64,000 nt of DNA, from positions 8,308,001 to 8,372,000 of the forward strand of contig NC_090365.1 in assembly GCF_035084215.1 (NCBI RefSeq). Direction: 5' to 3'. Of the stretch, positions 19,201 through 59,779 are shown in pieces. Each line of letters starts with the position of its first letter. Positions within the stretch are counted from its first letter, which is position 1. The stretch is from Heptranchias perlo. Its lineage: Eukaryota. The position numbers and the translations under genes were made by a program. The notes beneath the pieces were generated by a model. It worked only from the letters and a program-made list of their open reading frames with translations. It made no database searches and was not told the DNA's origin.

Positions 19201-19535
19201 GGTCTGAGGGGAGGGTGAGCCCCCCCCCCCCGGGGTCTGAGGGGAGGGTTGGGGGAGCCCCCCCCCCCCCGGGGTCTGAGGGGAGGGTTGGGGGAGCCCC
19301 CCCCCCGGGGTCTGAGGGGAGGGTTGGGTGAGCCCCCCTGGGGTCTGAGGGGAGGGTTGGGTGAGCCCCCCCCCCCGGGGTCTGAGGGGAGGGTTGGGGG
19401 AGGGTTGGGGGAGGGTTGGGGGAGGGGCCCCCCCGGGGTCTGAGGGGAGGGTTGGGGGAGGCCCCCCCCCCCGGGGTCTGAGGGGAGGGTTGCGGAGCCC
19501 CCGGGGTCTCTAAGGGAAGCCCTGGGGTCTGAGAG
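19200..19535. repeat. G-rich ~35-40 bp minisatellite in GEMIN7 intron 1
   Basis: ggggtctgaggggagggttgggggagccccc units with variable poly-C. Confidence 0.9.
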
Positions 19536-50535: not shown

Positions 50536-56318
<5,783 letters not shown>

Positions 56319-56433
56319 GGGGTCGGGAGGATTGAACTGGTTAACTCTGGCTTTGTTTTCAGAAGCCGTTACTCCTGGGTTTTTTTTTTAGTGCAGTAAC
56401 TGGTTTGTGTATTAGATTAAAGTTCTGATGCTT

Positions 56434-56442
56434 CAGGTAAGT
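56434..56442 (+). promoter_or_regulatory. U1 snRNP binding site in SNRPA 3' UTR
   Basis: CAGGTAAGT, perfect complement of the U1 snRNA 5' end, 115 nt after the stop codon. A U1 site upstream of PIE is known in mammalian U1A. Confidence 0.65.
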
Positions 56443-56839
56443 GGAGAGACCCCCTCGGGTTCCTCATGTTCCAGCATCGCGCTGGCCTGTGTGAACGAGG
56501 CAAGCTTCTGTTTTAATGGGGTGGATACGATCTGTAAACCTGCTGAGGGACCACTGCCTGGGGCCGTTCAGATTGTTGTGTATGTTGTTATCCTCTCCTT
56601 GCCCCATTCCACCCTGGGTACATCCCAGAGGGCCTGTCAAATCGAAATAATTCACTTCCCTTTTGAATGCTGTTCAGGAGCTGATTACATGGCTTTACCC
56701 TGAGTGGAGGAATTGGATGGACTTTAACTCCTGCTCATGCTTTTTTTTTAAAATTTGACTGCCCCCGTTTGACTGTATTTTTGAGCGAATGAATGTGTCT
56801 GACTGGCTGAGGTAACAGTTTGGCTTAATCGCACGTAAG

Positions 56840-56910
56840 AAAGCTGTTCACCCAGAGTCTCCGTGACATTGCACCTGGAGCTTTCGAACTTATTGGACTA
56901 ACTGAATAAA
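56840..56910 (+). promoter_or_regulatory. SNRPA 3' UTR polyadenylation inhibition element (PIE) and poly(A) signal
   Basis: AAAGC-TGTTCAC-CCAG-A-GTC-tccgt-GAC-ATTGCAC-CTGG-A-GCTTT folds into the three-stem, two-internal-loop PIE. AATAAA at 56905-56910. Confidence 0.88.
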
Positions 56911-59779
56911 AAGTTTTTTTTTATAACCTGCTGTGAGTGTTTATTTATCACCGAGCTCTCGTACTTTACAGGGTTATGGTTATGGAACATTTTCTCTACA
57001 TCTGCCCTATCCAACCCTTTCATAATCTTAAAAGACCTATTAGGTTGCTCCTCAGCCTTCTCTTTTCCAGAGAAAAGAGCCCCATCCTGTACAGGAGCTG
57101 TCACTGAGACACTCATGGACAGTACAGTACCAGATAGGAGTGAATTGTTCCCTTTTACATGCTGTGTAGGAGCTGGCACTGAGACACACTCTGATAAGAG
57201 TAGAGATATACACTCCCTTTTTGTGGAATAAGCCCATTAGGGCTGGGTTTTGTTGGGTGACTGCAGTGGGGGGAAACTACGTGATAGAAATTCTCATTGC
57301 CCACTGTGTTTTCCCATGGTGGTGTCTTGTGATGGGATTGAGGAGCAAGTGGAATGACGTGTAGGACTAGCCCTGCTTAACCGGTAAGTACAGCAGGGGA
57401 GGAAAGAGCATGTGTAGCGTGAGGGGTACGAGTGGGTTGTGAACCCTGTGAAAGTAGCTGGAATTGTAAGTGCTGCATCAGTGCTTCATGTACTGAGCCT
57501 GGTCTGCTGCTGATTTAATCAGCCTGTTACCAGCACTGTAGGAAGCACTCCTACTGTTGCAGCTTCAGAACAGTCCCTGGCGTTTGCTCAGGGTGCTCAG
57601 TACAATAGGGGCAGCTAAACCCCAAGTTTCCAGATTTTCCCAACTACAGCTCAGTTAGCAAAAAAGACCAAGCAGCTTGTGTGTTCACAGCTCGGTAAGG
57701 ATTTTGAACATTGGGTCAAACTCCATTTTACTCTTGAACTACTGGACGATTCACTAGAAAGGATTCAGACATTCACTTGGATTGCACATTTACAGTTGGT
57801 TTGAAAGCAAGGGTTAACTTGCCCGGGACATTACAGTATAAATGCGAAACAGCGGAATGCAGACTATTAAACTGATATCCAACCGTTCAGTTTAAACACT
57901 GCAGGAGCAATACAGTACAGAAACTGCGACGGTCAATAACAACTGATAAGGCGAAGCTTTCAGAAGGTTTTCGATGTCGACAACAGCGAAGAACAAAGAC
58001 CTGATCGGACAACTGGCTTCACGTAGAGAGGAGGCTACAAGGGGTTCATACAGTCCGTGAGTAGTACAACAAGCATCCATTTTAATACTATGGACAAATT
58101 GGGCCTTCTCATAACTTGGTTCACACCCATTTGCTCAGAAACATAAAAATAAGATGTCGTAGCAGTCAAAACAACAGATATCGAAGAAGCTTCCAGAGTT
58201 AATGACTGTGGCATAAGCTCCTCCAACAAGGCTTTGTTTCTGAACTTTGACAAAAAGACTTTGATTCTGAGCTTTAACCAAACCACTTTGTCACTAAACT
58301 TTGATGAAAAGACAAACCCTGATGATAAGAACCTCGACACATCATTCAACACATCTCTTAATAATGCACCTATTTCTGCAGCAATTGCTGCCCTACTTCT
58401 AGACCTAGACGGCTGCTTTGATGCATAAGGTATATGCTACTTGCTTTGTGCCTGCTCATGTACTCTTTTAAGTCATTAAGCAAGGAACGCCACCACTTGT
58501 TTTATCAGGTAGAGCAATCCTTGCATTAATTGAGTTGCTTCATGCTTGCTATGTCCTCTTTTTAAATGACTAAATAAAGAACCACTTTGATTCACAAAAC
58601 CACTGGGTCAGGTGGCTTTCTTTGCCTGAACAATCATCCAGATCCATGCATCTCTGGGAAAGACCCGAAATTCCCTGCAGCTGTGCCTGTATCTGAAGGA
58701 CTTGCATTGAAAATGTTACTGTTCCTGTTCCATCCAACCCAGTTCCAAAATAAATTCCAAGACCTTAGTGAGGGATTGGAGTGTTACCCTGTGTAAAGTG
58801 AGGTTTGTTTGTGCTAAATACTCCAGGCAGCACAAGCTGTCCTGGGGCCACTTGCTTAGCTGAAGAGACTGGCTGCTTTCACTGGTGTTTGTTTCTGCTG
58901 ATGTTGAAGTAAATACTGGGGTATTTTGTAATCCTTCCCTCCCTGCTCTTAATGCTTCTGCCACTTGGTTCTGCAGATTTAACACTCCCACCTGGTGCTA
59001 ACTGATGTGGGGATTTCTCTGAAAGGGTGAGTGGCGGAGGCACTGGATGAGACACTCGCCTGACAGCGAGGTCCATATACAGCCCTGCCTGTAATGAGTG
59101 GGTAGTCTCGGTCCGTTCTGCAGCAGCTTGGACCGACAGCAGAAAACTGGCAATCAGACTCGTCATGGGACAGCTGGTGTGAGAAATGGCTAATTGTCAC
59201 AGTGGTGCAGTAGGAGAGTGGGACGGTGTAGAGGGAGCTTTATTCTGTATCCAACTTGTGCTGTTCCTGCCCTGGGAGTGTTTGATGGGACAGTGCAGAG
59301 GGAGCTTTACTCTGTATCTAACCTGTGCTGTACCTGCCCTGGGTGTATTGATTTTGTGTACCATTCCTAGCTCCGTTAAATGGTGTGAGAGGGTTGTGTT
59401 GTGTTAGAGGCAAATATATCCGAAGGAAGGTGAGATCTTTTAAAAACAAACCACTCAATAATATTCCAAACACAAGCTTTTCAAATCCAACTCAAACAGC
59501 AGATTTAGAGAAATATTTTTATTCCGTGTATGGAAGGTGTAAACACATCTCTTCCTACCATGCTTTATAAAAAGGTAATTGTCCTTATGACTTTTGCTTC
59601 AAGCCAGTTGCTGTCGGGAAGGACATTCCACAAAGTTTTTAGGTTGGCAAAACCAATCCATTAAGCTTAGCAAACATTGGCTGGGGCTCCCGGGAGGCCA
59701 CAGTTCCAGTATTTTACCCAAAGCTGCCTCCTCTCTCCCAGTAAGCTGAGGGTTCAGAATGTTTGCTGGCTGGAACAAA

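What the first reader, a model, noticed from the sequence alone, without database searches (positions are those of the whole stretch)
56828..56910. U1A autoregulatory PIE keeps its fold but has only one intact U1A box
Seen: three stems (AAAGC/GCTTT, CCAG/CTGG, GTC/GAC) and two 7-nt asymmetric loops lie 20 nt upstream of AATAAA. Box 2 is perfect ATTGCAC (56868-56874), box 1 reads TGTTCAC (56845-56851), and a near-box ATCGCAC sits just upstream (56828-56834). Established: human PIE needs two U1A molecules on two AUUGYAC loops to inhibit poly(A) polymerase. Inference: feedback here is weakened, works through a single site, or uses the displaced ATCGCAC, which would be a variant wiring of this switch.
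Basis: partly seen in the sequence, partly recalled or inferred. Interest (0 to 1): 0.72.

Follow-up and report, generated by a model that had tools for sequence, protein, structure and literature searches.

The report
Shark U1A feedback element, one site
In the tail of this splicing-protein gene, likely from a shark or ray, the known two-site self-braking RNA element has only one intact binding site, and relatives share the change; the altered site is predicted to pair with nearby RNA instead, so the brake likely trips only at high protein levels and likely needs a second helper.

Summary
All coordinates check out. This is the 3' UTR of the single SNRPA (U1A) gene found, likely of an elasmobranch. 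It matches Rfam U1A_PIE over its full length but below the family cut-off (37.5 against 50 bits). Box 1 (UGUUCAC) is no assembly error: 4 of 4 distant organisms laid, roughly one lineage, show no change over 56845-56885. The protein's RNA-binding parts and U1 stem-loop II are canonical, so box 1 is probably not a U1A site.

First, box 1's three changed letters let it pair with a conserved arm at 56811-56821. That hairpin is predicted to beat the PIE fold in most contexts and shows AUCGCAC in its loop; chance tests for it are only modest (p about 0.03-0.2). Second, a perfect 9-nt U1 snRNP site lies at 56434-56442.

Best reading (0.4): a one-site, high-threshold, two-state PIE that relies on U1 snRNP and perhaps on weak U1A binding at AUCGCAC. 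No binding, probing or 3'-end data exist here. This is a new variant of a known kind. The scan's notes hold no earlier copy of this element, only related single hairpins in sea urchin and fungal U1A genes (unchecked).

The parts
50536..56318 (+). SNRPA (U1A) coding span, six coding exons, ATG 50536 to TGA 56316-56318
   Evidence: Six-frame motif scan, sequence; exon 2 identical to human U1A at 57 of 58 residues; last intron spliced in an organism B contig, 55543 to 56159
53457..53576 (+). Exon 3 start: helix C and the poly(A)-polymerase-inhibitory region (human 103-119); basic motif kept, with F101Y, R108K, P113V and S115I
   Evidence: phmmer against PDB U1A; role of 103-119 from passages of PMC5071671
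56416..56421 (+). ATTAAA, possible proximal poly(A) signal 13 nt before the U1 site (untested)
56434..56442 (+). Perfect 9-nt U1 snRNP site (CAG/GUAAGU) in the terminal exon, not spliced in the organism B contig
56811..56821 (+). 5' arm of alternative hairpin H1, predicted to pair with 56841-56852 (stem-1 5' arm plus box 1)
   Evidence: core kept in C, D, F and G, with G56811A and A56814G read from the loose ends
56828..56834 (+). Near-box AUCGCAC (U3C), apical loop of H1; possible weak second U1A site
   Evidence: unpaired 0.96-0.99 in the folds; at most 2 unseen substitutions and no gap over 56815-56844 in D
56839..56845 (+). PIE stem 1, 5' arm (7 bp with 56879-56885); one pair differs on both sides from the Rfam consensus (C-G to A-U)
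56845..56851 (+). Degenerate box 1 UGUUCAC (A1U, U2G, G4U)
   Evidence: no listed change in 4 of 4 runs; 0 differences in the X1 contig
56852..56878 (+). PIE stems 2 and 3 with the apical loop; in the alternative fold 56854-56884 forms hairpin H2
56868..56874 (+). Box 2 AUUGCAC, perfect U1A site, same as the U1 stem-loop II loop of this genome
   Evidence: no listed change
56905..56910 (+). AAUAAA, followed by a U run (56914-22) and a GU/U-rich stretch (56931-46)
   Evidence: no change listed inside the hexamer in C, F or G; use not shown

Best explanation
This is the U1A gene's polyadenylation inhibition element, likely of a shark or ray, with one perfect U1A box and one altered box that distant relatives share; the altered box is predicted to pair with an upstream arm, which would make the element a two-state, high-threshold brake in which one U1A likely acts together with U1 snRNP at a perfect upstream site. 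Shown: the gene, the Rfam match, the boxes, their conservation, the canonical protein and U1 loop, and the 9-nt U1 site. Predicted: free RNA folds as H1 (56811-56852) plus H2 (56854-56884), which half-buries box 2. Restoring the inner PIE stems with box 2 open costs about 2-8 kcal/mol depending on the window. Inferred: only excess free U1A pays this cost. The second poly(A)-polymerase-inhibiting module then comes from U1-70K in the U1 snRNP, and perhaps from weak U1A binding at AUCGCAC in the H1 loop.
For: Box 1's three non-consensus letters all pair in H1; setting them to consensus in silico moves P(stem 1) from 0.01 to 0.64. H1 core probability is 0.64-0.95 in 7 of the 9 windows that contain the arm in full... 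see full report for the count by call: 0.73-0.95 in 7 of 9 and 0.27 and 0.64 in the other two; at least 0.71 in 21 of 24 prefix folds, lowest 0.28. H1 is complete before stem 1's 3' arm is transcribed. The sequence changes seen in relatives mostly spare H1: A56814G gives G-C or G-U, A56837G in B gives U-G, and B loses a loop base; P(H1) is 0.82-0.91 with C/D/F/G letters and 0.97-0.99 with B letters. There is no visible change at the 14 letters that a one-box PIE leaves free (p 0.1, 0.04 or 0.007 at 15, 20 or 30% background); two folds would explain that. PIE stems are also kept, with one double change against Rfam. One U1A alone is not enough in human (passage, PMC5071671). All uninterrupted 9-bp U1 duplexes inhibited at least 5-fold in reporters (passage, PMC2367729), and a U1 site acts with PIE in mammals (passage, PMC3157836).
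Against: H1 is not exceptional by energy. z is -2.3 (52 of 2000 shuffles) for 56811-56852 and -1.6 (143 of 2000) for 56812-56851. With the PIE fixed and the upstream 30 nt shuffled, 267 of 2000 fold as well and 202 of 2000 pair at least 5 box-1 letters; 67 of 1418 window stretches pair with the strand as well. With start 56780 the PIE stem 1 wins (0.65-0.66). There is no double compensatory change inside H1, and G56811A plus the lost outer CUG/CAG helix shorten it in C/D/F/G. C, D, F and G share all three listed substitutions, so they count as about one comparison; box 1's conservation alone is not significant (p 0.08-0.3). The U1 site was seen only in the own genome and close relative B, lies 400 nt from the PIE, and is partly paired in some folds. 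There are no binding, probing or 3'-end data.
Confidence: 0.4

Rival explanations
1. Plain PIE fold with a single working site. H1 is a folding-program by-product. One U1A at box 2 gives weak feedback, backed by the U1 site.
For: The 7-bp stem 1 and stems 2-3 are intact, with a double change against Rfam. PIE wins in the 56780-start windows. H1 chance rates are 3-22%.
Against: It does not explain why 56815-56844 carries at most 2 substitutions and no gap in D (p 0.15, 0.04 or 0.002), nor the unchanged apical loop and box 1. H1 dominates most windows.
Confidence: 0.3
2. Site 1 has moved. AUCGCAC in the H1 loop binds a second U1A while box 2 keeps stems 2-3 stacked on H1, so two U1A molecules still inhibit poly(A) polymerase in a new geometry.
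For: H1's 3' arm ends at 56851 and stem 2 starts at 56852, so both can coexist. That fold is within 1 kcal/mol of the PIE fold in the short windows and 1.7 kcal/mol better with C/D/F/G letters. The near-box is unpaired and keeps A1, G4 and A6.
Against: U1A needs a stem-loop of 10 nt or more and a C-G closing pair (passages, PMC4114683). This loop is 8 nt (7 in B) and closed by A-U. Pyrimidine changes cost 1.6-4 kcal/mol (PMC2203988). The fold is 2-5 kcal/mol worse than PIE in the two longer windows. The near-box lies in the zone where hides up to 2 changes.
Confidence: 0.15
3. Ordinary two-site PIE. A second U1A still docks on box 1 through protein-protein cooperativity, using the kept U3, C5, A6, C7 and the flanking C-G pairs.
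For: Spacing and flanking pairs match Rfam. The dimer and inhibitory region is conserved. Human box 1 is itself the weaker site (recalled, not from a call).
Against: A1 and G4 are both changed; related changes cost 5.0 and 6.4 kcal/mol (PMC2203988). The protein and its U1 target are canonical, so specificity has not shifted. U56845 can pair and close the loop to a 6-nt bulge.
Confidence: 0.1
4. Assembly error or recent private decay.
For: The Rfam score is below gathering (37.5 against 50).
Against: The X1 contig has 0 differences over 55400-57077 (possible source sample, so not independent). Four other organisms in four studies show no listed change over 56845-56885.
Confidence: 0.02

Closest known systems
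U1A polyadenylation inhibition element (Rfam RF00460 U1A_PIE)
   Same: Same gene, same place about 20 nt before the poly(A) hexamer, same three stems, perfect box 2, canonical U1A protein.
   Different: Box 1 differs at 3 of 7 letters including A1 and G4; stem 3 is 3 bp against 5 in the consensus; stem 1 is 7 bp; the conserved block extends about 25 nt upstream and can form a competing hairpin; score is below the family cut-off.
Mammalian U1A 3' UTR U1 site acting with PIE (Guan 2007; seen only as a title in reference lists and as summarised in PMC3157836)
   Same: A 5'-splice-site-like sequence in the terminal exon upstream of the PIE.
   Different: Here it lies about 400 nt upstream. Whether it has the base-paired repressor part named in that title was not established (predicted pairing varies by window).
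U1 snRNA stem-loop II, and the single hairpins noted by this scan in invertebrate and fungal U1A/SNF genes (unchecked notes)
   Same: H1 presents a box-like sequence in an apical loop.
   Different: The loop is 7-8 nt with U3C and an A-U closing pair, against 10 nt, AUUGCAC and C-G.
IgM secretory poly(A) site inhibition by U1A at degenerate AUGC motifs (passages, PMC2874999)
   Same: U1A inhibits poly(A) addition from several non-consensus sites outside a PIE fold.
   Different: Different gene; not autoregulation; no perfect box.

Membership tests
U1A PIE (RF00460) | Lies in the 3' UTR of the U1A gene just upstream of the poly(A) signal | tested here: met
   (one SNRPA and one 71% paralog among 6 candidates scored)
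U1A PIE (RF00460) | Covariance-model score above the gathering threshold (50 bits) | tested here: not met
   37.5 bits, full length
U1A PIE (RF00460) | Three stems able to pair in PIE geometry | tested here: met
   all pairs standard; one double change against consensus
U1A PIE (RF00460) | PIE fold is the favoured structure in context | tested here: inconclusive
   P(stem 1) 0-0.66 by window; H1 usually favoured; prediction only, without protein
U1A PIE (RF00460) | Two AUUGYAC boxes in asymmetric internal loops | tested here: not met
   box 2 perfect, box 1 4 of 7; same in relatives
U1A PIE (RF00460) | U1A with canonical RRM1 and 103-119 inhibitory region | tested here: met
   exon 2 57 of 58 identical to human (S48N); exon 3 basic motif kept; exon 1 read but not aligned
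U1A PIE (RF00460) | Cooperative binding of two U1A and inhibition of poly(A) polymerase | not testable with these tools
   needs EMSA and polyadenylation assays
U1A PIE (RF00460) | Host poly(A) polymerase has the conserved C-terminal 20 residues | not tested
   no search made
U1A PIE (RF00460) | The adjacent poly(A) site is used | tested here: inconclusive
   B contig leaves the genome at 56923 with 23 unaligned letters not shown; F contig runs 80 nt past 56951; contigs only
3' UTR U1 site (U1-type inhibition of polyadenylation) | At least 8-9 contiguous pairs with the U1 5' end in the terminal exon | tested here: met
   9 contiguous pairs; threshold from passages of PMC2367729
3' UTR U1 site (U1-type inhibition of polyadenylation) | Site accessible, conserved and functional | tested here: inconclusive
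   pairing varies by window; seen in B only; function untested

The most novel reading that the evidence does not exclude
Sharks and rays run U1A autoregulation through a protein-triggered RNA switch. Former box 1 has become the stem of a hairpin that displays a relocated U1A site, and U1A binding at box 2 flips the 3' UTR between two conserved folds. This hairpin-plus-half-PIE design could be either a rewiring of, or a surviving step towards, the symmetric two-loop PIE of mammals.
Probability: 0.2. Interest if true: 0.72.

Novelty: new variant of a known kind. Interest (0 to 1): 0.5.

Why it matters
The PIE is the textbook case in which two cooperatively bound proteins are said to be required to switch off poly(A) polymerase. 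A natural, conserved version with one canonical site and an unchanged protein tests that rule directly. It also offers a handle on how the two-site element arose and on how much of the brake U1 snRNP can carry. The audience is RNA-processing and RNA-evolution specialists; no medical or broad consequence is claimed.

Tried and rejected
1. 5'-splice-site-like readings of GAG/GTAAC (56809) and CAC/GTAAG (56832): only 6 and 5 contiguous pairs, and both are altered in relatives. Rejected as U1 sites.
2. Near-box ATTGGAC at 56892-98: two changes in 4 of 4 runs. Rejected.
3. A PIE shifted to use ATCGCAC in standard geometry: its 3' flank cannot pair with CTGG (by inspection). Rejected.
4. Changed U1A specificity: U1 stem-loop II is canonical in 6 of 6 loci read, of 42 matches. 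Rejected.
5. Metagenome pattern scan for other vertebrate PIEs: one hit, inside a tandem repeat with no SNRPA context. Uninformative.
6. Second Rfam match in the genome (L003, E 0.58): no hit with exon 2; the exon 6 query was translated in the wrong frame and says nothing.
7. No RNA holder is on record. The own-sample run X5 showed no contig on the gene, which the tool's filter can cause, so it is no evidence either way.
8. Primary papers not held: Guan 2007, van Gelder 1993, Guan 2003, Workman 2014, and one id I recalled for Klein Gunnewiek 2000. The supplement of PMC3157836, with the mammalian alignment, could not be read. These may show non-mammalian PIEs.
9. The shark-by-PIE paper search was swamped by general shark papers; 0 of the 25 listed held 'U1A PIE', 'RF00460' or 'SNRPA'.

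Full report
Observation. A 5-kb Rfam scan gave one match, U1A_PIE at 56836-56904, full length, 37.5 bits, E 1.2e-5, below the gathering score of 50. In the whole genome it is the better of 2 matches among 59 candidates scored. The 801-nt stretch has one match, itself.

Gene and organism. Six coding exons from 50536 to the stop at 56316-56318 encode U1A. Exon 2 equals human U1A at 57 of 58 residues. The helix C and 103-119 region keeps its basic motif with four changes up to residue 115. The genome search gave this gene and one paralog at 71%, likely U2B''. For the variable exon 3, the best named protein of 37 hits is sawshark U1A, 88% over the full length; bony vertebrates reach 63-76% over 80% or more of the query, and higher only over shorter parts. 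An elasmobranch origin is therefore an inference. The U1 stem-loop II loop is canonical in 6 of 6 loci read, so protein and natural target have not co-shifted.

Is box 1 real? I laid 7 of the 24 listed runs. The own-sample DNA contig has 0 differences over 55400-57077; it may be the source of the assembly. In one search, whose tables were not cut, 4 of 4 runs (organisms C, D, G, F; four studies) align from 56815. Their only listed substitutions are 56886, 56893 and 56896, and all listed gaps lie after 56902. Differences seem to be listed only from about 31 letters from a piece end (my reading), so 56845-56885 is visible and unchanged. For 56815-56844, D allows at most 2 unseen substitutions; C, F and G allow up to 8, 8 and 7, shared with their other end zone. 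Organism C is 81-86% identical in the last exon and proximal UTR and gives no 80% alignment over 56405-56814 (some of its records may be extra copies). Zero changes in 41 nt has p 1e-3 to 1e-4 at 15-20% background; for box 1 alone p is 0.2-0.3. C, D, F and G share all three substitutions and count as about one lineage. Close relative B shows loss of G56835 and A56837G; 3 of the 5 substitutions in that contig were not displayed in the cut table, so an unchanged box 1 in B is likely but not seen.

Can box 1 bind? From the first fifth of PMC2203988: A1G costs 5.0 kcal/mol, G4A 6.4, and pyrimidine changes 1.6-4. Box 1 has A1U, U2G and G4U; those exact changes were not in what I read. Passages of PMC5071671 say one U1A is not enough for efficient inhibition. 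So either the brake is weak or another module helps.

Alternative fold. In the 136-nt fold the arm 56807-56821 pairs with 56841-56855, closing a hairpin (H1) with AUCGCACG at its tip; 56854-56884 forms a second hairpin (H2) in which the PIE apical-loop letters pair. Of the 9 windows that contain the arm, mean pair probability of the alternative helix was 0.73-0.95 in 7, 0.64 in one and 0.27 in one. In 24 prefix folds the H1 core was at least 0.71 in 21 and 0.28-0.38 in 3, all three starting at 56780. With a 120-nt span limit over the whole UTR it was 0.75 against 0.16 for stem 1. Constrained minimum energies for 56810-56890 are -21.4 (H1+H2), -13.5 (PIE, box 2 open) and -13.9 (H1 with stems 2-3, box 2 open); for 56780-56925 they are -27.9, -26.6 and -21.9. 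Setting box 1 to consensus in silico raises P(stem 1) from 0.01 to 0.64. With relatives' visible letters H1 stays at 0.82-0.99 (unseen changes and sequence upstream of 56810 not modelled for C, D, F, G).

Against the alternative fold. Shuffle z for H1 is -2.3 or -1.6 depending on its ends. Shuffling the upstream 30 nt gives an equal or lower energy in 267 of 2000 (443 of 2000 with C/D/F/G letters). Real 30-mers from the window do so in 459 of 2127, or 158 of 1886 when GC-matched. The isolated PIE is not exceptional either (z -0.97). There is no double compensatory change in H1, whereas PIE stem 1 has one against the Rfam consensus. H1 is thus plausible, not shown.

The near-box. It keeps A1, G4 and A6 and is unpaired in the H1 folds. 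Passages of PMC4114683 state that U1A-type domains need a stem-loop, that the best loop is 10 nt or more, that 9- and 8-nt loops lose affinity, and that the C-G closing pair matters. With an 8-nt loop (7 in B), an A-U closing pair and U3C, it is at best a weak site.

The U1 site. CAG/GUAAGU at 56434-56442 pairs with this genome's U1 5' end over 9 contiguous bases; the next best UTR site has 6; 0.002 are expected in the UTR; one more occurs on the plus strand of the 64-kb window. B's contig runs through it unspliced with no listed change. Passages of PMC2367729 report at least 5-fold inhibition for all uninterrupted 9-bp duplexes and loss of activity when the site is in a stem. Passages of PMC3157836 describe a conserved 5'-splice-site-like sequence acting with PIE in mammals; passages of PMC2874999 give U1-70K the same polymerase-inhibiting motif. 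This part is therefore a known feature found again, and the most economical source of the second inhibitory module. Its conservation beyond B was not seen.

Poly(A) site. The hexamer has a U run and GU-rich sequence after it. B's contig stops aligning at 56923 with 23 further letters that were not displayed; this fits a poly(A) tail but also an indel at the T run, and a contig of D also ends there. F's contig continues 80 nt past 56951 in genome-like sequence. Both runs are RNA only by guess. Use of the site is neither shown nor refuted.

Mechanism. Most likely (0.4): H1 forms first during transcription and box 2 is partly hidden; high free U1A captures box 2 by restoring stems 2-3, with or without stem 1; one U1A plus U1 snRNP, and perhaps a weak second U1A, blocks poly(A) addition. 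All steps after the sequence facts are predicted or inferred. Rivals: plain one-site PIE (0.3), relocated second site (0.15), cooperative use of box 1 (0.1), artefact (0.02).

Comparison and novelty. It works like a PIE and is its ortholog, but fails two defining features (two boxes; family cut-off), so I file it as a variant. I found no description of a one-box or chondrichthyan PIE in the listings of 7 searches of the held library; the primary Gunderson and van Gelder papers and the alignment supplement were not readable and may cover non-mammals. A teleost PIE is annotated without sequence in passages of PMC5584509. PMC9977717, PMC9136276 and PMC1903381 were read as passages and give the two-site model. 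Whether the shark state is derived or ancestral cannot be told without outgroups. The scan's notes show no look-alike stretch and two unchecked reports of single U1-like hairpins in sea urchin and fungal U1A genes, which suggested the 'intermediate' wording of the novel case.

Verdict. Real, conserved, a new variant of a known kind; interest 0.5.

Noticed in passing
window 56408-56430: ATTAAA at 56416-21 lies mostly in the loop of a predicted 8-bp hairpin, 13 nt before the perfect U1 site; bound U1 would cover the expected cleavage zone of this possible proximal poly(A) signal.
   Followed up: partly
window 56986-57094: Very high-copy repeat right after the poly(A) region, present in all four runs laid.
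   Followed up: no
G000:C12:67535637-67640941: Tandem U1 snRNA array: 20 of the 42 listed matches, 166 nt long, mostly 3508 bases apart.
   Followed up: no
L012 (G000:C21:34357724-34357897): Paralog exon 71% identical to SNRPA exon 2, likely SNRPB2; its 3' UTR was not examined.
   Followed up: no
L003 (G000:C932:438388-438426): PIE-like inner stems with both boxes altered, E 0.58, no exon 2 hit within the locus; probably chance.
   Followed up: partly
window 56210-56404, run X13: Organism C has many overlapping contigs here (15 at 56345) and one joint from 55528 to 56266, hinting at extra or retroposed copies of the gene's 3' part.
   Followed up: no
window 56331-56337 and 56606-56612: Two more one-mismatch boxes in the UTR; the second lacks G4.
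   Followed up: no
window about 19220-19470: Short G/C-rich tandem repeat seen in the six-frame scan.
   Followed up: no
L010 301-327: A metagenome contig carries the inner PIE pattern by apparent chance inside a tandem repeat of about 120 nt.
   Followed up: partly
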